This document shows, one piece after another, positions 3,958 to 59,989 of a DNA stretch of 64,000 nt. The translations under genes and the position numbers were made by a program. The notes below the pieces were generated by a model that searched no databases, was not told the origin of the DNA, and was given only the letters and a program-made list of their open reading frames with translations. Position 1 is the stretch's first letter; every line of letters starts with the position of its first letter. The DNA is from Escherichia coli (GTDB taxonomy: Bacteria > Pseudomonadota > Gammaproteobacteria > Enterobacterales > Enterobacteriaceae), in assembly GCF_003991155.1 (NCBI RefSeq), contig NZ_CP031295.1. One strand, 5' to 3'.

Positions 3958-4018
3958 ACACGACATAATCTGTAGTCAGGGAGGATAGACTCTTTACTGA
4001 CTACAGATTATGTCGTGT
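3958..4018. repeat. perfect 22-bp inverted repeat (arms 3958-3979 and 3997-4018, 17-bp spacer) downstream of iutA
   Basis: read directly: acacgacataatctgtagtcag ... ctgactacagattatgtcgtgt; a second 10-bp inverted repeat tgatatcaac/gttgatatca lies at 3914-3951. Confidence 0.8.
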
Positions 4019-13778: not shown

Positions 13779-14021
13779 TTTCGGCATTGCTGTGTCGTCT
13801 GATATACCTCAATTTCATCAACCGGATTTCCGGTTGTCTGTAAATATTGTGCCCGCGAAAAATGGTCTGGCAGGAGGCTGCACAGTTACCGGGTATATAT
13901 AAGATGGGTTCCCGCTTCGCGGGGCTTCGGCCAGTCAGTATTGTCACTCATATGATATTTTTGTGTGTGGCCTTCCATGCCGCTTTTGCGGCATAACCGG
14001 TATCTGACAATGTCTGTAAGA

Positions 14022-46169: not shown

Positions 46170-46382
46170 ATGAATGGATTCAGAAACAGTTCACGGAACG
46201 GTCAGGTCTGGCGTTACCAGCGTGCCGGCGGGCGGGCCGTTATTCTGGAGGTCAGTGGACGCTGGATGGAAGCGGCAGAAGCATGGCGACGGGCTGCCTG
46301 TGTTACGCCCCGGACAGACTGGCAGCAGTTTGCCCAAAAAAGGGCTGAACACTGCCACCGGCGCTGCCGGGGAAGGGGGTAA
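46170..46382 (+). CDS. hypothetical protein (70 aa, Cys/His-rich C-terminus)
   Basis: ORF with strong RBS AAGGGAGGGG 8 bp upstream; no family recognised; an overlapping 87-aa ORF in another frame (46174-46437) is the alternative. Confidence 0.35.
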   Translation: MNGFRNSSRNGQVWRYQRAGGRAVILEVSGRWMEAAEAWRRAACVTPRTDWQQFAQKRAEHCHRRCRGRG

Positions 46383-46771
46383 CGAAAAAAGCAGCCTTCA
46401 TTACACCAGAAGTCAGAAGGCTGAAAGGAGTTTATGAGATTTGCTTTTTTTAGTTTCATCTTCATACCTTATTGGGTGTATTAAAAACAGTAGGCTGCCA
46501 AAGTTTTAAACAAGTTTCAATTCTCCATGACTGCTCAGCATCAGCCAGAGGGAATTCCCATTCTGGACCAGCGGGAGCATACGAATAATAATTTACGGGT
46601 TTCCCCGCTCCCGGCGTTTTTGTAACAAAAACAGGCAAATGGGGGTAATAGTCAGCAACAGGGAATGTGGTATTATCGCGGCGGGTGTCTGAGCCTTTCT
46701 GGTTCAGGCAAGACGCAGGTACCAGAAATGCGAAGACCCCACTCGTTAATCCATTAACTCGTGAGGTCTGC

Positions 46772-46978
46772 ATGAAGTACCTTAACACTACTGATTGTAG
46801 CCTCTTCTTTGCAGAGAGGTCAAAGTTTATGACGAAATATGCCCTTATCGGGTTGCTCGCCGTGTGCGCCACTGTGTTGTGTTTTTCACTGATATTCAGG
46901 GAACGGTTATGTGAGCTGAATATTCACAGAGGAAATACAGTGGTGCAGGTAACTCTGGCCTACGAAGCACGGAAGTAA
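46772..46978 (+). CDS. srnB: SrnB/PndA-type Hok-family type I toxin
   Basis: 68 aa MKYLNTTDCSLFFAERSKFMTKYALIGLLAVCATVLCFSLIFRERLCELNIHRGNTVVQVTLAYEARK; antisense RNA expected on the opposite strand around 46700-46780 (not delimited). Confidence 0.8.
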   Translation: MKYLNTTDCSLFFAERSKFMTKYALIGLLAVCATVLCFSLIFRERLCELNIHRGNTVVQVTLAYEARK

Positions 46979-47589: not shown

Positions 47590-47690
47590 CAGGGAACTGG
47601 TTCTGATGTGGATTTACAGGAGCCAGGAAAGTGAAAACCCCGATAATCTTCTTCAAGTTTGGCGACTAGAAAGATTATCGGGGCCCCATA
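47590..47690 (-). ncRNA. copA: putative CopA antisense RNA
   Basis: inferred by position in the repA1 leader; contains an inverted repeat ccccgataatcttc...gaagattatcgggg that could form the major stem-loop; ends not determined. Confidence 0.45.
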
Positions 47691-47734
47691 AAACCACATA
47701 GCCAACAATTCAGCTATGTGGGGAGTATAGTTAT

Positions 47735-47809
47735 ATGCCCGGAAAAATTCAAGACATCTTTCTGTGCTCACTCCTTCTGTGCATTGTAAGTGCAGGATGG
47801 TGTGACTGA
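47735..47809 (+). CDS. repA6: Tap/RepA6 leader peptide (translationally coupled to repA1)
   Basis: 24-codon [27 protein letters not shown] whose TGA overlaps the GTG start of repA1. Confidence 0.7.
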
Positions 47810-48659
47810 TCTTCAACAAACGTATTACCGCCAGGTAAAGAACCCGAATCCGGTGTTTACACCCCGTGAAGGTGCCGGAACGCTGAAGTTCTGCGAAAAA
47901 CTGATGGAAAAGGCGGTGGGCTTCACTTCCCGTTTTGATTTCGCCATTCATGTGGCGCATGCCCGTTCGCGTGGTCTGCGTCGACGCATGCCACCGGTAC
48001 TGCGTCGCCGGGCCATTGATGCGCTGCTGCAGGGGCTGTGTTTTCACTATGACCCGCTGGCCAACCGCGTCCAGTGCTCCATCACCACACTGGCCATTGA
48101 GTGCGGACTGGCGACGGAGTCTGCTGCTGGAACACTCTCCATCACCCGAGCCACTCGTGCCCTGACATTCCTGTCAGAGCTGGGACTGATTACCTACCAG
48201 ACGGAATATGACCCGCTTATTGGCTGCTATATTCCGACCGACATCACGTTCACACCGGCGCTGTTTGCTGCTCTCGATATCTCAGAAGAGGCGGTGGCTT
48301 CCGCACGCCGCAGCCGTGTGGAATGGGAAAACAGACAGCGCAAAAAGCAGGGGCTGGATACCCTGGGTATGGATGAGCTGATAGCGAAAGCCTGGCGTTT
48401 TGTGCGTGAGCGTTTCCGCAGTTACCAGACAGAGCTTAAGTCCCGTGGAATAAAACGTGCCCGTGCGCGTCGTGATGCGAACAGGGAACGTCAGGATATC
48501 GTCACCCTGGTGAAACGGCAGCTGACGCGTGAAATCTCGGAAGGGCGCTTCTCTGCCTGTCGTGAGGCGGTAAAACGTGAAGTGGAGCGTCGTGTGAAGG
48601 AGCGCATGATTCTGTCACGTAACCGCAATTACAGCCGGCTGGCCACCGCTTCCCCCTGA
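47802..48659 (+). CDS. repA1: RepA1 replication initiator (IncFII)
   Basis: 285 aa from GTG ([24 protein letters not shown]...); the track ORF starts 4 codons earlier at 47790. Confidence 0.9.
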
Positions 48660-48829: not shown

Positions 48830-49020
48830 TTGCTTATCCACATTAAACTGCAAGGGACTTCCCCATAAGGTTACAACCGTTCATGTCATAAAGCGCCAGC
48901 CGCCAGTCTTACAGGGTGCAATGTATCTTTTAAACACCTGTTTATATCTCCTTTAAACTACTTAATTACATTCATTTAAAAAGAAAACCTGTTCACTGCC
49001 TGTCCTGTGGACAGGCAGAT
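48830..49020 (+). other. putative oriR (IncFII vegetative origin)
   Basis: DnaA box TTATCCACA ~170 bp downstream of repA1, followed by an AT-rich segment. Confidence 0.6.
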
Positions 49021-49215
49021 ATGCGGCGCCCACCGCAAGCAGCGGGCCCCGACCGGAGCCACTTTAGTTACAACACACAAAGACAACCTCCGGAAAAACC
49101 CCGGTCCAGCGTAGAACCGAAACCACAAAGCCCCTCCCTCATAACTGAAAAGCGAGGCCGCCCCCGCCCGAAGGGCGGGAACAACATCGCTTTTAATTAT
49201 GAATGTTGTAACTAA
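49021..49215 (+). CDS. small ORF in the RepA4 position (doubtful)
   Basis: 64 aa Pro/Arg-rich ORF downstream of the origin; low-complexity, may be non-coding. Confidence 0.3.
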   Translation: MRRPPQAAGPDRSHFSYNTQRQPPEKPRSSVEPKPQSPSLITEKRGRPRPKGGNNIAFNYECCN

Positions 49216-49624
49216 GAATCCTCATCGCTGTCAGTCTTCTGGCTGGAAGTATTGAGTACACGCTCGTAAGCGGCCCTCACGGCCCGCTAACGCGGAGATA
49301 CGCCCCGACTTCGGGTAAACCCTCGTCGGGACCACTCCGACCGCGCACAGAAGCTCTGTTGTGGCTGAAAGCGGATATGGCTTAGCAGGACTGAGGATGG
49401 GTAAGGTGATATCTATCAATCCGTACCGGCTTACGCCGGGCTTCGGCGGTTTTACTCCGGTATCATATGCAACAACGGAGTACCGCCTTCCATGCCGCTG
49501 ACGCGGCATCAGAATAATACAAACAGCATTTAATGCATTTGCAAAAGTGTGAGTAATAAAGACTTGTTAAGTGGTCGTTTCAGGGATATCGTTAAGACTT
49601 GTTAAACAGTCTCAAAGGTGCGTT

Positions 49625-49876
49625 ATGCCTAACATCATTCTGTCTGACACCAGTGCAAGTGTCAGTGAACTGAAAAAAAATCCTATGGCTACAGTCAGTG
49701 CCGGAGATGGTTACCCTGTCGCCATTCTTAACCGGAATCAGCCGGCATTCTACTGTGTGCCTGCTGAACTGTATGAAAGGATGCTTGATGCTCTGGATGA
49801 CCAGGAACTGGTGAAACTGGTTACTGAACGCAGCAATCAGCCACTGCATGATGTGGACCTAGACAGTTATTTATGA
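49625..49876 (+). CDS. Phd/YefM-family antitoxin
   Basis: 83 aa from MPNIILSDTSASVSELKKNPMATV...; overlaps the downstream toxin start by 4 bp; direct repeats agacttgttaa in the promoter. Confidence 0.8.
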   Translation: MPNIILSDTSASVSELKKNPMATVSAGDGYPVAILNRNQPAFYCVPAELYERMLDALDDQELVKLVTERSNQPLHDVDLDSYL

Positions 49877-50160
49877 CTTATACGGTAAAATTCAGGGATG
49901 ATGCGCTCAAGGAATGGCTGAAACTGGATAAGACCATTCAACAACAGTTTGTGAAAAAACTAAAAAAATGCAGCGAAAATCCTCATATACCGTCAGCAAA
50001 ACTAAGAGGGCTAAAGGATTGCTACAAAATTAAACTACGTGCATCGGGATTTCGTCTGGTTTATCAGGTGATTGACGATATGTTAATTATTGCGGTTGTT
50101 GCGGTAGGAAAACGAGAACGTAGTAACGTTTATAATCTCGCCAGTGAGAGAATGAGATAG
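49873..50160 (+). CDS. RelE/ParE-family toxin
   Basis: 95 aa MTYTVKFRDDALKEWLKLDKTIQQQFVKKLKK...; classic antitoxin-toxin operon arrangement. Confidence 0.8.
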   Translation: MTYTVKFRDDALKEWLKLDKTIQQQFVKKLKKCSENPHIPSAKLRGLKDCYKIKLRASGFRLVYQVIDDMLIIAVVAVGKRERSNVYNLASERMR

Positions 50161-50990: not shown

Positions 50991-53900
50991 TTAAGCAACG
51001 TTTTCTGCCTCTGACGCCTCTTTTAATGGTCTCAGATGTCCTTTGGTCACCAGTTCTGCCAGCGTGAAGGAATAATGGCCGAGCATATTGATATGTCCGT
51101 GGCAAAGCGGGGAGAGGCGTGCGATATCTTCATCATTCAGTGTTTCACCCTGCGCCCGGAGATGATCCAGGGCTGCCTGCATATAAATAGTGTTCCATAA
51201 CACGACGGCGTTAGTGACCAGCCCCAGTGTGCCCAGTTGATCTTCCTGACCGTCGGTATATCGTTTTCTTATCTCACCTTTTTGACCGTGACAGATGGCT
51301 CTGGCAACGGCATGGCGACTTTCTCCCCGATTAAGCTGGGTCAGAATGCGCCGGCGGTAATCTTCATCATCAATATAATTAAGCAGATACAGCGTTTTGT
51401 TGATGCGCCCCACTTCAATGATTGCCTGAGTCAGTCCGGAAGGACGTTCACTTTTCAGCAATGAACGGACCAGCACTGAAACCTGTACTTTGCCCAGCTT
51501 CAGGGAGCCAGCGGTCCGGATCATTTCGTCCCACTGAAGGACTATTTTTCGGGGATCTGATTGCCCTCTGGCAATATCATTCAGCACGCCATAGTCGGCA
51601 TCATGGTCCATTCGCCAGAAAACCGAAGCACCGGCATCAGCCAGGCGTGGAGAAAACTGGTATCCCAGCAGCCAGAAAAGGCCAAAGACAAGTTCGCTGG
51701 CACCTGCTGTATCGGTCATAATTTCGGTTGGATTCAGCCCGGTCTCCTGTTCCAGAAGACCTTCCAGCACAAAGATAGAGTCCCTCAGCGTCCCCGGTAT
51801 AACGATGCCATGAAAGCCGGAATACTGATCGGACACAAAGTTGTACCAGGTGATCCCTCTGTTATTACCAAAGTATTTGCGGTTCGGTCCGGCATTGATT
51901 GTTCTGACTGGCGTAACAAAGCGCATTCCATCTGCAGATGCCACTTCTCCTCCACCCCATATCTGTGCCAGTGGCAGCGTTGCCTGAAAATCAACCAGTC
52001 TGGCATTAGCGCTGGTGATAGTTTCAGCCCGCAGATAGTTCGCTTTTGTCCAGTTCAGCCGGTGTCGGGTCAGTGCAGGAACATTTGATCTGATCAGTGG
52101 TTCCAGACCGATATTGCAGGCTTCAGCCATCAGCACGGCGCTGATGCTGACGGGCAGATCATCAACTCTGGCACTGGCTTCACTAGCATGGAAAAACTCA
52201 TCAGCAAATCCGGTATGGGCGTTAATTTCGAGCAGCAACTCCGTTAAATCCACCGGAGGGAGTAGATCACTGATCATTTTGCTCAGTCGTTTCAGACTGT
52301 CCGGCTCATCAAGACTGGCGAGGGGAGAAATTGTCAACCGGGGCTTCGGGCCAGAAACATCGAGTTCGACAGCCTCATTTTCGCAAAGACGTGCAGCAAC
52401 CTGTCTGTAACGACTATCAAGCTGATGACCCAGAGATTTTATTGCTTCCTGCGGGTCTGTCGGGTGCCCCAAAGAACGATAAACCTTAATCCGGTTTGCC
52501 TGCCAGTCAGCACCCTGTAGTAATCTTGCACGAGGATCTCCCCACCGGTTACTGCCGGTAACGTAGACATCCCTCCGCCTCAGACTATCCTGCAGTTTAC
52601 TGAGAAAGCAGAGCGTGTATCCCCTGCGGGTGATATGTTTTTCCTTGTTAATCACCAGCCGTTTCCATGACCGACTGATAATTTCCGTTGGTGCGTCGTC
52701 AAAAAACTGCCGCCGTGAGCTGAACTCCCGGCTGAGGTAGTCACAGGCATTCAGAGTGGTAACCCCGGCAGGTGCGGATGAAAATTTAACGGTATTCAGC
52801 AGATGGGGCAGGAAACGACGAACGCGCCCGTACTGCTCCACCATTTCTTCATGAAAATTATCGTCTGAGGGCCGGGCAATTTCACGGACAAGCGTGATGA
52901 TTTCAGCCAGCTTTTGCCTTGGGATGTAGCTGAACACCTCAGCACGAATCGATTCGTCCGGTGTTTCTTCTTTCAGCAGGTACGAACATGCGCTGGCGAG
53001 CGCCAATGCAGATTTATCCAGATCCTTCAGCGAGCGGAGCCGTTTTTTCTGCCCAATCTTTCTGGCGTCACGGATGATAACGGCCAGCATGGCGTCCAGA
53101 ACGTCCAATGCATCATCCAGCGCCAGCGTTTCCCATGCAAGGACAAAGGCAACCAGAACCGCCATCCTTTTCTGCGGTGACATCCTGGCAATATTGAACA
53201 CCGAAGTCATACCAGCATAACGTGCGAGATTTTTCAGGCGCACAGCCGGGAGTGTACTCAGGTTTTCAGCATGCAGGCCAAAATCGTTCAGAGTTTTCCA
53301 GCGTTCAATTGCTTCATTAAACGCCGGACCACTGATGGTCACAGGGCCCTTTTTCAGTGATTCCAGTAAAGACAGGCGGCTGCAATCAGTTGGCCCCAGC
53401 AGCATCTCCAGCTGTGAACGCTGTTCGGCTGACGGTATCAGTGCCAGTTTGTTCCACAGGCGCAACGTCGCCTTTTCCCTTACCTCTGAAATCAACCGGG
53501 TCAGCGTAGTGGCTCCGGGGAGAATAATACGATGTTGCATAAGCCACCCTGTCGCCAGATCGAAAAGCAGGCCAGGACGTTCGTTGCTTATCCAGCTCCG
53601 GGTATATAAAAGACGGGTAAGGCGAAATGTCCAGGGCCAGGCAAATTCACGATACTGATAGTGCTGACGTATCAGCGCTGCATGCTCACGGCGGGTATTT
53701 TCCCTCTGACCGTATTCTGCAAGAACGGTGATATCACGAATCCCGAGCTGTCTGGCGGTAAAATGCCGGACGCCGGAAGGAATATGATTCATATCGGTGA
53801 GGAAGGTGCCCAGAAAACGGACACATCCAATTTGCAGGGCAATGCCCAGACGGTTGTGATCACCTCTGCTTTTTCCGATAAATTCCTTGTCTGCTTCATC

Positions 53901-53996
53901 AAGGTGAAAATATCGTGCCAGCTGAAGCTCATCCGGTTCACCGGTGAATCTGCCATAGCTTTCAGTCTGCTCAGTGGTCAGAAAGTCAACGGGCAT
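50991..53996 (-). CDS. tnpA: Tn3-family transposase TnpA
   Basis: 1001 aa from MPVDFLTTEQTESYGRF...; track ORF 5' extension rejected. Confidence 0.9.
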   Translation of the reverse strand: MPVDFLTTEQTESYGRFTGEPDELQLARYFHLDEADKEFIGKSRGDHNRLGIALQIGCVRFLGTFLTDMNHIPSGVRHFTARQLGIRDITVLAEYGQRENTRREHAALIRQHYQYREFAWPWTFRLTRLLYTRSWISNERPGLLFDLATGWLMQHRIILPGATTLTRLISEVREKATLRLWNKLALIPSAEQRSQLEMLLGPTDCSRLSLLESLKKGPVTISGPAFNEAIERWKTLNDFGLHAENLSTLPAVRLKNLARYAGMTSVFNIARMSPQKRMAVLVAFVLAWETLALDDALDVLDAMLAVIIRDARKIGQKKRLRSLKDLDKSALALASACSYLLKEETPDESIRAEVFSYIPRQKLAEIITLVREIARPSDDNFHEEMVEQYGRVRRFLPHLLNTVKFSSAPAGVTTLNACDYLSREFSSRRQFFDDAPTEIISRSWKRLVINKEKHITRRGYTLCFLSKLQDSLRRRDVYVTGSNRWGDPRARLLQGADWQANRIKVYRSLGHPTDPQEAIKSLGHQLDSRYRQVAARLCENEAVELDVSGPKPRLTISPLASLDEPDSLKRLSKMISDLLPPVDLTELLLEINAHTGFADEFFHASEASARVDDLPVSISAVLMAEACNIGLEPLIRSNVPALTRHRLNWTKANYLRAETITSANARLVDFQATLPLAQIWGGGEVASADGMRFVTPVRTINAGPNRKYFGNNRGITWYNFVSDQYSGFHGIVIPGTLRDSIFVLEGLLEQETGLNPTEIMTDTAGASELVFGLFWLLGYQFSPRLADAGASVFWRMDHDADYGVLNDIARGQSDPRKIVLQWDEMIRTAGSLKLGKVQVSVLVRSLLKSERPSGLTQAIIEVGRINKTLYLLNYIDDEDYRRRILTQLNRGESRHAVARAICHGQKGEIRKRYTDGQEDQLGTLGLVTNAVVLWNTIYMQAALDHLRAQGETLNDEDIARLSPLCHGHINMLGHYSFTLAELVTKGHLRPLKEASEAENVA

Positions 53997-54717
<721 letters not shown>

Positions 54718-58560: not shown

Positions 58561-59617
58561 GGCTTTGTTGAATAAATCAGATTTCGGGTAAGTCTCCCCC
58601 GTAGCGGGTTGTGTTTTCAGGCAATACGCACGCTTTCAGGCATACCTGCTTTCGTCATTTTGTTCAGCGCTCGTACCAGGGCCATAGCCTCTGCAACCTG
58701 ACCATCGTAGTCACGCAGTATCAGTGAACCTCCGAACAGCTGTTTTACCCGGTACATCGCCGTTTCCGCTATCGAGCGACGGTTGTAATCTGTTGTCCAT
58801 TTCCACCGCGCATTACTCCCGGTCAGCCGCTGATTCGCAACAGCACGGTTACGGTCTGCATATTCACCGGGCCAGTAACCCGCGCCTTTTCGGGGCGGGA
58901 TAAGCGCGCTGATTTTCTTACGCCGCAGTTCATCGTGACAGAGTTGGGTGTCGTAAGCGCCGTCTGCCGATGCTGCCCTGATTTTTCTGTGAGTCTGCCG
59001 GATAAGACCCGGGAAGGCTTCTGAGTCCGTCACATTGTTCAGCGACAGGTTTGCACAGATGATTTCATGTGTGTTGCTGTCAACTGCCAGATGCAACTTT
59101 CGCCATATACGACGGCGTTCCTGGCCATGCTTTTTGACTTTCCATTCGCCTTCACCAAAGACCTTCAGCCCGGTGGAATCAATCACCAGATGCGCGATTT
59201 CACCCCGGGTGAACGTTTTGAAACTGACATTAACCGACTTTGCGCGCCTGCTGACACTGGTGTAATCCGGGCAGCGCAACGGAACATTCATCAGTGTAAA
59301 AATGGAATCAATAAAACCCTGTGCAGCCCGCAGGGTCAACCTGAACACGCGTTTAATGACCAGAACGGTGGTGATGGCGAGATCAGAATAGCGCTGAGGT
59401 CTTCCCCGTGATGAAGGCGTTGCCGACTCATACCAGGCCTGAATAGCTTCATCATCCAGCCAGAAAGTTATGGAGCCACGGTTGATGAGGGCTTTATTGT
59501 AGGTGGGCCAGTTGGTTATTTTGAACTTTTGCTTTGCCACGGAACGGTCTGCGTTGTCGGGAAGATGCGTGATCTGATCCTTCAACTCAGCAAAAGTTCG
59601 ATTTATTCAACAAAGCC
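58561..59617 (-). mobile_element. IS903-like insertion sequence (IS5 family, 1057 bp)
   Basis: 18-bp terminal IRs GGCTTTGTTGAATAAATC at 58561-58578 and inverted at 59600-59617; flanking 9 bp differ. Confidence 0.8.
58617..59585 (-). CDS. IS903-like transposase (DDE)
   Basis: 322 aa ORF filling the element; recognised as the IS903/IS102 transposase family from memory; true start may be an internal Met. Confidence 0.8.
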   Translation of the reverse strand: MKDQITHLPDNADRSVAKQKFKITNWPTYNKALINRGSITFWLDDEAIQAWYESATPSSRGRPQRYSDLAITTVLVIKRVFRLTLRAAQGFIDSIFTLMNVPLRCPDYTSVSRRAKSVNVSFKTFTRGEIAHLVIDSTGLKVFGEGEWKVKKHGQERRRIWRKLHLAVDSNTHEIICANLSLNNVTDSEAFPGLIRQTHRKIRAASADGAYDTQLCHDELRRKKISALIPPRKGAGYWPGEYADRNRAVANQRLTGSNARWKWTTDYNRRSIAETAMYRVKQLFGGSLILRDYDGQVAEAMALVRALNKMTKAGMPESVRIA

Positions 59618-59989
59618 GTCTGTGTTGTAAAATGGCGCCGAAAGCCCGGCGTAGCCGGTTGCCGGGCTATAAATTCTGCCACCCTACCCCCTGCCCTGAT
59701 TAGCCTTAACTCGCGAACAGCAATGAAGAAGTCAAAGTAATCCCTTTTAACCCCGGTGAGCGGGCTTTACGGCGTTTACGACGTAAAGGGCGTGATTTCC
59801 GGGGCCTAAGCGGCGGCAGCTTGCTGCTGACGCTTAGGGGGATGTTCATCAACTATTTCAGCGACACCAGGGAACTTAACACGGTAGCTGCAAAGCCCTA
59901 ATCCCGCTCACCGCCACGCAGCTGCCGTACGTCCCCCACGGGGGTGCGCAGTGCTGCGCGCGGGAACGGCGGCCCGTCTGCGGGACGCG

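What the first reader, a model, noticed from the sequence alone, without database searches (positions are those of the whole stretch)
49260..49515. Hairpin-dense non-coding segment downstream of oriR: candidate single-strand initiation site or structured RNA
About 250 bp between the RepFIIA origin and the toxin-antitoxin operon is packed with GC-rich stem-loops read directly from the sequence: gcgg...ccgc around 49270-49288, cccgac[ttcgggtaaaccctc]gtcggg at 49304-49330, ccggc-ttac-gccgg at 49426-49439, ggcgg-tttt-actccg...cggagt-a-ccgcc at 49445-49487, and atgccgc-tgac-gcggcat at 49491-49508. The only ORF across it (49231-49509, minus strand) has no RBS and looks spurious. Such structure near an IncFII origin would fit a primosome or primase recognition site for lagging-strand initiation, or a small regulatory RNA.
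Basis: inference. Interest (0 to 1): 0.45.

Follow-up and report, generated by a model that had tools for sequence, protein, structure and literature searches.

The report
Known primase start site beside IncFII origin
The hairpin-rich stretch is real, conserved and non-coding. Its right half matches the long-known "G site", where host primase starts the leading DNA strand of R1/R100-type plasmids, so the finding is essentially ordinary; its strongly conserved left half still has no assigned job.

Summary
All five hairpins are present; one is 1 nt off (49492-49509, not 49491-49508). Both strands fold better than shuffles (z -3.25 and -4.54). The 279-nt block is shared by >5000 IncF plasmids and is 97% identical to R100. 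Homology stops exactly at 49509. Across IncFII-type replicons of about 30 enterobacterial species (RepA 52-97% identical) the stems keep pairing through compensatory changes. The minus-strand ORF is broken by stops and frameshifts in every relative. No promoter, terminator or Rfam family fits.

There are two elements. The right one (49373-49511) has an invariant CTG on the minus strand (49386-88) in a motif matching the annotated primer start of phage G4 (13/13 nt in one relative), with three or four stem-loops 5' of it on that strand. This fits the primase-dependent "G site" of R1/R100, which primes the leading strand about 400 bp from oriR (from memory; papers not retrievable). The same element recurs next to oriT here and in F, and downstream of repZ in R64.

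The left one (49258-49351) is more conserved, occurs only with the origin, and sits 40 bp after a Ter site. Its function is unassigned.

The lagging-strand and small-RNA alternatives are not. Already known; low interest.

The parts
49373..49511 (-). Right element: plasmid-type G site, a primase-dependent single-strand initiation signal. The functional template is inferred to be the minus strand.
   Evidence: Covariance model R1 scores it at 107.8 bits. In 33 aligned sites 91.7% of cells are paired against 33-57% in slid controls; 19 of 24 pairs show double changes; 0/500 shuffles reach this. It is 97% identical to R100.
49386..49388 (-). Invariant 5'-CTG-3' on the minus strand (CAG on the + strand). 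Inferred primase start: first primer base A at 49387, primer growing rightward.
   Evidence: CAGG is invariant in all 33 sites. The surrounding motif CTGC.A..C.A aligns with the G4 primer start (annotated at 3997/3998); locus L027 matches 13/13 nt and this window 12/16.
49401..49417 (.). Helix H0. It is weak in this window and clear in most relatives. It would lie inside the first ~30 nt of the primer.
   Evidence: All six pairs show double changes, but only 75% of cells are paired. There are 21 G.T on the + sense against 4 A.C.
49426..49439 (.). Hairpin I (ccggc-ttac-gccgg), followed by the conserved GGGCTTCGGCG.
   Evidence: 96% of cells paired, with CG/GC swaps such as cccgc/gcggg, gcggc/gccgc and ccgcc/ggcgg.
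49445..49487 (.). Hairpin II. The base of the stem is conserved and covarying; the interior is variable.
   Evidence: 97% of cells paired. Arms vary as GGCGG/CCGCC, GGCGCC/GGCGCC, GGTGCC/GGCACC and GGCGAC/GTCGCC. The interior is unrelated between site 1 and site 2.
49492..49509 (.). Hairpin III (atgccgc-tgac-gcggcat), preceded by GCCTTCC. It marks the end of the conserved backbone.
   Evidence: 97.5% of cells paired, with variants ATGCGCC/GGCGCAT, GTGCCGC/GCGGCAC, ATACCGC/GCGGTAT and ATGCCC/GGGCAT. The pattern occurs exactly twice in the window against 0.01 expected. Homology to thousands of plasmids ends at 49509.
49258..49351 (.). Left element: a very conserved structured element of unassigned function. 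It comprises hairpin a (49270-87), enclosing helix 49293-97/49335-39, hairpin b (49304-30) with an inner hairpin (49313-15/49320-22), and AAGCGG at 49268-73.
   Evidence: A profile HMM finds one copy per IncFII/IncI replicon. Mean column identity is 87%, with a 16-nt invariant GCTAACGCGGAGATAC. 90.3% of cells are paired against 33-42% in slid controls, and 9 pairs show double changes.
49196..49218 (+). Ter site, Tus-binding consensus (core GTTGTAACTAA with G6), oriented to stop rightward-moving forks. Context only, outside the finding.
   Evidence: Sequence and core scan. It is conserved 53-54 bp left of the left element in most loci. Polarity was calibrated on MG1655 TerB.
49061..49083 (-). 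Inverted Ter site (19/23 match to TerA), oriented to stop leftward-moving forks. Context only.
13858..13996 (-). Second G-site copy (site 2), in the leading region 620-760 nt from the oriT nick, on the transferred strand.
   Evidence: Found by blastn-short and read. The covariance model gives 71.4 bits. The F plasmid has the same element at the same place, 62 bits and not in the training set. The nick motif lies on the minus strand at 14614-34.
59594..59711 (+). Third, truncated G-site copy (site 3). The covariance-model hit reads on the minus strand, so its template would be the + strand. It is cut after the 5' arm of hairpin II by an IS903-like end.
   Evidence: 43.9 bits, E = 4e-12, not in the training set. 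Its context is 95% identical over 290 bp to a Klebsiella grimontii IncFII-type locus.

Best explanation
The segment is the cis-acting, non-coding region just downstream of the IncFII origin, historically called the 'repA4 region'. It contains two single-stranded-DNA elements.

Right element (49373-49511): the plasmid-type G site.
- After RepA and DnaA open oriR and DnaB unwinds rightward, the minus strand becomes single-stranded.
- Its hairpins III, II and I (and H0) stay folded within SSB-coated DNA and mark the site for DnaG primase.
- Primase starts at the invariant 5'-CTG-3' (49386-88, first base A at 49387) and makes a short primer that grows rightward.
- Pol III extends this primer as the leading strand of unidirectional replication.
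- After one round the fork returns through repA and oriR and is arrested at Ter(+) (49196-218), about 170 nt short of the starting point.

Copies of the same element sit next to oriT on the transferred strand. There they would prime complementary-strand synthesis in the recipient.

Left element (49258-49351): a second structured element, conserved at the sequence level and specific to the origin. Its role is not established here. My best guess is an accessory single-strand signal, acting either as a PriA-type primosome assembly site or in handling the gap left between Ter(+) and the primer start.

What is shown: the structures, their conservation and covariation, the CTG/G4 motif, the strand geometry, and the non-coding status. 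What is inferred or taken from memory of the literature: primase-only priming, the exact start base, and the order of events.
For: Structure and conservation
- All hairpins are present and fold better than shuffles.
- The block is in >5000 plasmids, with homology ending at 49509, and is 97% identical to R100.
- It is present in 31 of 35 informative IncFII-type loci from GTDB species representatives, at a fixed distance after repA.
- Right element: 19 of 24 pairs with compensatory changes, 91.7% paired against at most 57% in slid controls. Left element: 90.3% against at most 42%.

Link to G4-type priming
- An invariant CTG lies on the minus strand with the motif CTGC.A..C.A, aligned to the annotated G4 primer start.
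- The layout matches G4: stem-loops 5' of the CTG on the template.

Independent copies
- The model finds copies outside the training set in F next to oriT, in R64 about 700 bp after repZ at 112 bits, and as a truncated copy in the window.
- Site 1 and site 2 share three blocks separated by unrelated spacers. This matches what I recall of Tanaka et al. 1994: blocks A, B and C, with domain II dispensable.
- The oriT nick motif is on the minus strand, so site 2 lies on the transferred strand in the same orientation as site 1.

Fork geometry and genetics
- The Ter pair forms a trap whose rightward-blocking member lies just before the module. This fits rightward unidirectional replication that starts at the G site.
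- A transposon-insertion study found the 'repA4' region required for stable maintenance of an IncFII plasmid (PMC4398462).

Exclusions
- The ORFs are not conserved.
- There is no promoter or terminator and no Rfam hit.
Against: - No primary paper on the R1/R100 G site could be retrieved (searches failed; searches were uninformative). Identification with the experimentally defined site therefore rests on my memory of Masai & Arai 1989, Bernander et al. 1992, Jiang et al. 1993 and Tanaka et al. 1994, plus near-identity to R100.
- The exact start base is inferred. R100 and R64 also have a TACTG directly after hairpin I on the minus strand, and a CTG 3 nt after hairpin III on the plus strand. This window lacks both.
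- Wobble asymmetry does not settle the strand. H0 favours the + sense (21 G.T against 4 A.C). Hairpin II favours the minus strand (0 against 4). The left element favours the minus strand (10 against 24).
- Ter(+) would also block the helicase coming from oriR before it reaches the G site. This is unexplained.
- Four IncFII-type loci with enough downstream sequence lack the module.
- The left element has no assigned function.
Confidence: 0.8

Rival explanations
1. The segment, or at least its left element, is a phiX174-type primosome assembly site. It would be recognised by PriA on the plus strand (the lagging-strand template) and would start or restart lagging-strand synthesis.
For: - The hexamer AAGCGG, recalled as the motif shared by ColE1/pBR322 n' sites, sits at 49268-73 on the plus strand in a nearly invariant context.
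- The left element is a compact multi-hairpin structure.
- It occurs only with vegetative origins and never with the oriT copies.
- I recall a report that an R1 derivative carries two ssi signals (Bahk et al. 1988).
Against: - No diagnostic sequence model exists for such sites, so nothing could be tested beyond the hexamer.
- Wobble counts lean to the minus strand.
- By my recollection, R1 replication does not need the PriA/DnaT primosome.
- For the right element, the CTG/G4 motif and the geometry point to the minus strand and the leading strand.
Confidence: 0.25
2. The region encodes a structured small RNA or a cis-regulatory RNA, and the stems are RNA helices.
For: - The compensatory changes would equally fit RNA helices.
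- H0 shows G.U-type wobbles on the plus sense.
Against: - There is no sigma-70-like promoter on either strand and no intrinsic terminator in 49220-49520. The only terminator-like hit inside is the GGGCTTCGGCG hairpin.
- No Rfam family matches at E <= 1, whereas CopA, sok and AS-pc02 nearby are found.
- The same element sits in unrelated transcriptional contexts: after oriR, next to oriT, and after repZ.
- The invariant CTG and the G4 start motif are properties of a DNA template.
- The plus-sense wobbles in H0 are explained if H0 lies within the primer RNA itself.
Confidence: 0.04
3. The region is protein-coding: the minus-strand ORF 49231-49509, the plus-strand ORF 49361-49501, or a 'RepA4' protein.
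For: - The ORFs exist.
- Some records annotate a 'hypothetical protein' or 'replication protein' here.
- repA4 is a traditional gene name.
Against: - The minus-strand ORF has 1-7 stops in all 22 relatives, including the R100-like one, and its length is not kept in multiples of three. The plus-strand ORF is likewise broken.
- There are no Pfam hits.
- Substitutions follow base-pairing, not codon position.
- By my recollection, Jiang et al. 1993 found that no RepA4 protein is needed.
Confidence: 0.02
4. The inverted repeats act in double-stranded DNA, as binding sites for a dimeric protein or as cruciforms, rather than as single-strand hairpins.
For: - Palindromes are typical protein operators.
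- Tus-binding Ter sites lie next door.
Against: - The stem sequences change freely as long as pairing is kept, whereas loops and linkers are the invariant parts. This is the opposite of an operator.
- There are bulges and asymmetric inner hairpins.
- The element occurs on the transferred strand next to oriT, which is single-stranded on entry into the recipient.
Confidence: 0.04

Closest known systems
G site of IncFII plasmids R1, R100 and NR1: the primase-dependent ssi about 400 bp downstream of oriR, inside the 'repA4 region'. Sources, from memory: Masai & Arai 1989 J Biol Chem 264:8082; Bernander et al. 1992 EMBO J 11:4481; Jiang et al. 1993 J Bacteriol 175:5350; Tanaka et al. 1994 J Bacteriol 176:3606.
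   Same: - The position after oriR is the same. The CTG lies 553 bp after the DnaA box, roughly 370 bp after the end of a 188-bp oriR.
- 49225-49509 is 97% identical to R100.
- Three conserved blocks are separated by variable spacers.
- The region is required for stable inheritance (PMC4398462).
   Different: - This window has CCG instead of the CAG of R100 just left of hairpin I. That removes the second CTG candidate on the minus strand.
- The sequence right of hairpin III is replaced by a Phd/ParE-type toxin-antitoxin cassette instead of tir.
Phage G4 origin of complementary-strand synthesis (oric)
   Same: - The template carries several stem-loops followed on the 3' side by the start CTG.
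- The motif CTGCAAAGCCAAA at the annotated start is shared: 13/13 nt with locus L027, 12/16 with this window.
- In both, the primer would copy the nearest hairpin.
   Different: - There is no overall sequence or covariance-model similarity; G4 gets no model hit.
- The distance from the CTG to the first stem is about 14 nt to H0, or 37 nt to hairpin I, against 4 nt in G4.
- The plasmid element has four helices and a variable middle domain.
G-site copies next to oriT of F-like plasmids, and the G site downstream of repZ in IncI1 plasmids (R64, ColIb-P9)
   Same: Both are hit by the same covariance model: F at 62 bits, window site 2 at 71 bits, R64 at 112 bits. The CTG block, hairpin I, GGGCTTCGGC and GCCTTCCATGCCGC..GCGGCAT are shared.
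   Different: - The oriT copies lack the left element and the Ter sites, and their H0 and hairpin II interiors are unrelated.
- R64 carries the whole module, including Ter(+) and the left element.
phiX174-type primosome assembly sites (n' sites; ColE1 rriA and rriB)
   Same: The left element is hairpin-rich ssDNA near a plasmid origin and carries an AAGCGG hexamer.
   Different: No further similarity could be tested, and PriA dependence is unknown.
Frpo / ssiD-type single-stranded DNA promoters of leading regions
   Same: Both are folded ssDNA signals on the transferred strand that start primer synthesis (PMC7690428).
   Different: Frpo is recognised by RNA polymerase through -35 and -10 boxes in a long hairpin. 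No such hexamers occur here, and the start motif is the primase CTG.

Membership tests
G4-type, primase-dependent single-strand initiation signal (G site) | A 5'-CTG-3' start trinucleotide on the template strand | tested here: met
   The CTG on the minus strand (49386-88) is invariant in 33 of 33 aligned sites, and also in F and R64.
G4-type, primase-dependent single-strand initiation signal (G site) | Stable stem-loops located 5' of the start site on the template | tested here: met
   Hairpins I-III (and H0) lie 5' of the CTG on the minus strand. Fold z = -3.86, with covariation in 19 of 24 pairs. G4 has the same order.
G4-type, primase-dependent single-strand initiation signal (G site) | Sequence resemblance to the G4 start region | tested here: met
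   CTGC.A..C.A is invariant; 13/13 nt match in L027 and 12/16 in this window. G4 start annotation.
G4-type, primase-dependent single-strand initiation signal (G site) | Priming by DnaG alone on SSB-coated ssDNA, independent of DnaB, DnaC, PriA and RNA polymerase | not testable with these tools
   This is a biochemical property. It is known for R1 and R100 only from my memory of the literature.
Plasmid-type G site (R1, R100, ColIb-P9, F) | Near-identity to the experimentally dissected R100 site | tested here: met
   97% identity over 49225-49509. The R100 locus scores 112.4 bits with the model.
Plasmid-type G site (R1, R100, ColIb-P9, F) | Conserved blocks separated by a dispensable, variable internal domain | tested here: met
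   Site 1 and site 2 share GGCAGG, GGGCTTCGGC and GCCTTCCATGCCGC..GCGGCAT, with unrelated spacers. That these correspond to the published blocks A, B and C is my inference.
Plasmid-type G site (R1, R100, ColIb-P9, F) | Located a few hundred bp downstream of oriR, on the leading-strand template | tested here: met
   The CTG is 553 bp after the DnaA box. It is on the minus strand, so the primer grows away from oriR. The Ter trap orientation agrees. The direction of R1 replication itself is established knowledge and was not tested.
phiX174-type primosome assembly site | Hairpin structure carrying the AAGCGG motif | tested here: inconclusive
   AAGCGG is present at 49268-73 and conserved. The motif is short and not diagnostic.
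phiX174-type primosome assembly site | PriA binding and ATPase activation | not testable with these tools
   No computation is available for this.
Any Rfam RNA family | A covariance-model match | tested here: not met
   No hit in 49000-49600 at E <= 1, while CopA, sok and AS-pc02 nearby are detected.
Frpo-type ssDNA promoter | -35 and -10 hexamers formed within a long hairpin | tested here: not met
   No promoter-like site in 49220-49520 on either strand.
Protein-coding gene (repA4 or the minus-strand ORF) | An open frame preserved in relatives | tested here: not met
   Stops and frame changes in all 22 relatives. No Pfam hit.

The most novel reading that the evidence does not exclude
The left element (49258-49351) may be a functionally undescribed single-strand DNA signal, not an appendage of the G site.
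- It is the best-conserved part of the whole post-origin region, more so than RepA itself.
- It has covarying hairpins and a 16-nt invariant linker.
- It is always locked 53-54 bp after the rightward-blocking Ter site and just before the primer start.

It could act at the point where the returning fork is held by Tus, for example in filling or protecting the last ~170-nt gap. Alternatively it could let the initiating helicase get past or reload beyond Ter(+).
Probability: 0.2. Interest if true: 0.5.

Novelty: already known. Interest (0 to 1): 0.2.

Why it matters
This adds little new biology. The leading-strand priming site of IncFII plasmids has been known since the late 1980s.

The practical value lies in annotation. 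The element is not annotated in thousands of clinical IncF and IncI plasmid records. It is often overlaid with spurious 'hypothetical protein' or 'replication protein' ORFs, and it is absent from RNA and DNA motif libraries.

The work here yields three usable results:
- A covariance-supported model that finds origin-linked and oriT-linked copies across Enterobacterales.
- A fixed order of parts: oriR, Ter(-), Ter(+), left element, G site.
- A clear boundary (49509) at which accessory cargo is joined to the replicon.

Two points could be worth an experiment. The first is the unassigned, very conserved left element. The second is the odd placement of a non-permissive Ter site between the origin and its own priming site.

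Tried and rejected
Literature
- The primary papers (Jiang 1993, Bernander 1992, del Solar 1998, Lilly & Camps 2015) are not held.
- Nine full-text searches found only indirect mentions: repA4 and ter, the Nomura 1991 ssi list, and Frpo.

Database searches
- The Rfam scan found nothing in the segment.
- blastn of the segment against phage records found no G4-like match. The covariance model does not hit G4 either. The only link to G4 is the short start motif and the layout.
- The first attempt to seed search for related loci with a 15-sequence RepA alignment failed for lack of a conserved peptide. An 8-sequence alignment worked.
- A scan of viral contigs for the invariant 16-mer returned six loci, all carrying left plus right elements together. 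Those without RepA look like truncated plasmid remnants with the same toxin-antitoxin cassette. This gave no independent context.

Strand assignment
- Assigning the strand by G.T against A.C counts gave mixed signals.

Readings tested and rejected
- Coding.
- A promoter- or terminator-bounded small RNA.
- Duplex operators, rejected because of the pattern of variation.

Full report
**Setting**

The window carries an IncFII-type replicon.
- CopA RNA lies at 47629-47717 (-) (Rfam).
- repA lies at 47790-48659.
- The oriR DnaA box TTATCCACA is at 48834-42, followed by an AT-rich stretch.
- Two inverted Ter-like sites lie at 49061-83 (-) and 49196-218 (+).
- The finding covers 49260-49515.
- A Phd/YefM-ParE/RelE toxin-antitoxin pair lies at 49625-50160.

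**Observation**

The last one is at 49492-49509, 1 nt right of the stated coordinates.

As ssDNA, 49225-49520 folds to -59 kcal/mol on the + strand and -63 kcal/mol on the - strand. The z-scores are -3.25 and -4.54, and no shuffle out of 200 folds as well. The two halves are each significant on at least the minus strand.

**Conservation**

Homology ends exactly at 49509, the last base of the last hairpin. Alignment with R100 shows 97% identity over 49225-49509 and unrelated sequence beyond.

To escape this near-clonal set I built a RepA alignment and fetched 38 IncFII-type loci from one-genome-per-species contigs. RepA identity in these loci ranges from 52 to 97%. They come from Yersinia, Pantoea, Erwinia, Hafnia, Citrobacter, Klebsiella, Serratia, Mixta and others.

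The segment is found at the same place, 600-900 bp after repA, in 31 of the 35 loci that have enough downstream DNA. Four loci lack it: L034, L036, L037 and L038.

**Not coding, not an RNA gene**

The minus-strand ORF carries 1-7 stop codons in all 22 aligned relatives, including the R100-like one, and its length is not kept modulo 3. The plus-strand ORF 49361-49501 fares no better. Neither has a Pfam hit.

No promoter-like site and no real terminator lies within 49220-49520. No Rfam family matches at E <= 1.

**Two elements**

The alignment splits the segment into two parts.

The LEFT element (49258-49351) is almost invariant. Mean column identity is 87%, and the 16-mer GCTAACGCGGAGATAC is identical in all 31 sequences. 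Its proposed structure has four parts:
- hairpin a with a bulged C;
- an invariant enclosing helix;
- hairpin b;
- an inner hairpin within b.

This structure is 90.3% paired, against 33-42% when partners are slid. Nine pairs show changes on both sides, for example GCAGCC/GGCTGC, CACAAC/GTTGTG and CCAGC/GCTGG.

A profile HMM finds exactly one copy per replicon. It is always between Ter(+) and the right element. It occurs nowhere else in the window apart from a weak remnant in F.

The RIGHT element (49373-49511) is more variable in sequence but strictly conserved in architecture. A covariance model was built from 21 sequences with four helices. It re-aligns 33 sites. In these, 91.7% of cells are paired, against 33-57% in slid controls. 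Nineteen of 24 pairs have double changes, and 0 of 500 shuffles reach any of the five measures.

**What the right element is**

Four independent observations point to a primase start signal read on the minus strand.

(i) CAGG at 49386-89 is invariant in all sites. This gives 5'-CCTG-3' on the minus strand.

(ii) On the minus strand the motif around it, CTGC.A..C.A, aligns with the spot annotated in phage G4 as the origin of complementary-strand synthesis, with the RNA primer at 3970-3997. The Hafnia locus is identical to G4 over 13 nt (CTGCAAAGCCAAA). This window matches 12 of 16.

(iii) The order of parts on the minus strand is 5'-hairpin III, II, I, (H0), CTG-3'. This is the G4 order.

(iv) The model finds further copies that make sense only for single-stranded DNA.
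- One copy is at 13858-13996. Its counterpart in plasmid F, not in the training set, scores 62 bits. Both lie between the DUF932 gene and the transglycosylase gene next to oriT.
- The oriT nick motif TGCGTGGGGTGT/GGTGCTTTT lies on the minus strand at 14614-34. The minus strand is therefore the transferred strand, and this copy enters the recipient within the first ~760 nt, in the same orientation as the origin copy.

R64 (IncI1) has the whole module about 700 bp after repZ: Ter(+), the left element, and the right element at 112 bits.

The origin copy and the oriT copy share three blocks: GGCAGG; hairpin I plus GGGCTTCGGC; and GCCTTCCATGCCGC....GCGGCAT. The blocks are separated by unrelated spacers.

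This matches what I remember of the dissection of the R100 G site by Tanaka et al. 1994: blocks A, B and C in two essential domains, a dispensable middle domain, and only limited homology to phage G sites near the primer start. It also matches the R1 and NR1 work that places the start of leading-strand synthesis about 380-400 bp downstream of oriR, near the 3' end of 'repA4' (Masai & Arai 1989; Bernander et al. 1992; Jiang et al. 1993).

I could not retrieve these papers, so this part is own knowledge. From the library:
- The repA4 region of an IncFII plasmid is required for stable maintenance and contains the ter sites (PMC4398462).
- ssi signals were catalogued in F, R6K, R100 and ColE2 (reference lists).

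**Mechanism**

The following sequence is inferred. Opening of oriR and rightward unwinding expose the minus strand. The hairpins resist SSB and present the site to DnaG. DnaG starts at the T of the CTG (first primer base A at 49387) and synthesises rightward. Pol III extends this primer as the leading strand.

Helix H0 would lie within the first ~30 nt of the primer. It shows 21 G.T against 4 A.C on the plus sense, which would fit a hairpin in the primer RNA, as in G4. Hairpin II shows 0 against 4, the opposite bias. The numbers are small and not decisive.

**Ter sites**

Polarity was calibrated on E. coli TerB. TerB reads AATAAGTATGTTGTAACTAAAGT on the + strand just upstream of tus and arrests clockwise forks (established knowledge).

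On this basis Ter(+) at 49196-218 stops rightward forks and Ter(-) at 49061-83 stops leftward forks. Ter(+) is conserved 53-54 bp left of the left element in most loci. Ter(-) lies about 188 bp to the left in many.

This fits a round of rightward replication that starts at the G site and ends at Ter(+). It leaves a puzzle, because the helicase coming from oriR must cross the same barrier.

**Left element**

Its function is not established. It contains AAGCGG (49268-73), the hexamer I recall from PriA-dependent n' sites, on the plus strand. Wobble counts lean to the minus strand, 24 against 10.

It is absent from the oriT copies, so it is not needed for G-site function as such. It coincides with the stretch of minus strand that would remain unreplicated between Tus-Ter(+) and the 5' end of the leading strand.

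I rate a primosome assembly site at about 0.25 and an undescribed role at about 0.2. The 1988-94 literature may already cover it.

**Verdict**

The feature is already known, and interest is low.

Noticed in passing
window 13858-13996 (functional strand -); F plasmid L043 25392-25531: A second copy of the G-site element lies in the leading region, 620-760 nt from the oriT nick and on the transferred strand. It is present in about 4200 mostly conjugative plasmid records and is unannotated. It lacks the left element and the Ter sites.
   Followed up: yes
window 59594-59711 (-): A third, truncated G-site copy (43.9 bits) is cut after the 5' arm of hairpin II by an IS903-like inverted repeat (ggctttgttgaataaatcg; transposase ORF at 58617-59585). 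Its 290-bp context is 95% identical to a Klebsiella grimontii IncFII-type locus. It is a relic of another replicon.
   Followed up: partly
window 49061-49083 (-) and 49196-49218 (+): An inverted pair of Tus-binding Ter sites forms a fork trap between oriR and the G site. The rightward-blocking site is conserved 53-54 bp before the left element across genera. It should also hinder the helicase that has to expose the G site.
   Followed up: partly
L005 4563-4775, L029 4665-4878, L012 4614-4804: In Klebsiella-type and one Pantoea replicon the left and right elements are separated by about 190-215 nt instead of 22 nt. The content of this insert was not examined.
   Followed up: no
L025 4598-4735 and 4758-4875: One Enterobacter replicon has two G-site copies in tandem (133 and 56 bits).
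   Followed up: no
L034, L036, L037, L038: Four IncFII-type RepA loci (58-75% identity; Salmonella arizonae and diarizonae, Photorhabdus, Erwinia dacicola) have at least 1.4 kb downstream of repA but neither element. The module is therefore not universal in the family.
   Followed up: no
window 49157-49185 (-): A strong GC-rich hairpin followed by a T-run (terminator-like, 13 pairs) lies on the minus strand, between the two Ter sites.
   Followed up: no
window 46279-46462 (-), 46683-46841 (+), 47629-47717 (-): Rfam hits upstream of repA: AS-pc02 antisense RNA (156 bits), sok antitoxin RNA of a hok/sok module (94.5 bits), and CopA (92 bits).
   Followed up: no
F plasmid L043 13900-14022 (F 53899-54021): A weak model hit (11.8 bits, E = 0.009) has a hairpin III-like CCTTCAAGCCGCTTTCGCGGCAT, at the far end of the F leading region. 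It may be a diverged priming signal.
   Followed up: no
window 49510 onward; L046, L050, L051: The junction G site / Phd-ParE toxin-antitoxin cassette at 49509/49510 recurs in other contigs, some of which have lost repA and oriR. The end of hairpin III behaves as a recombination boundary for accessory DNA.
   Followed up: partly
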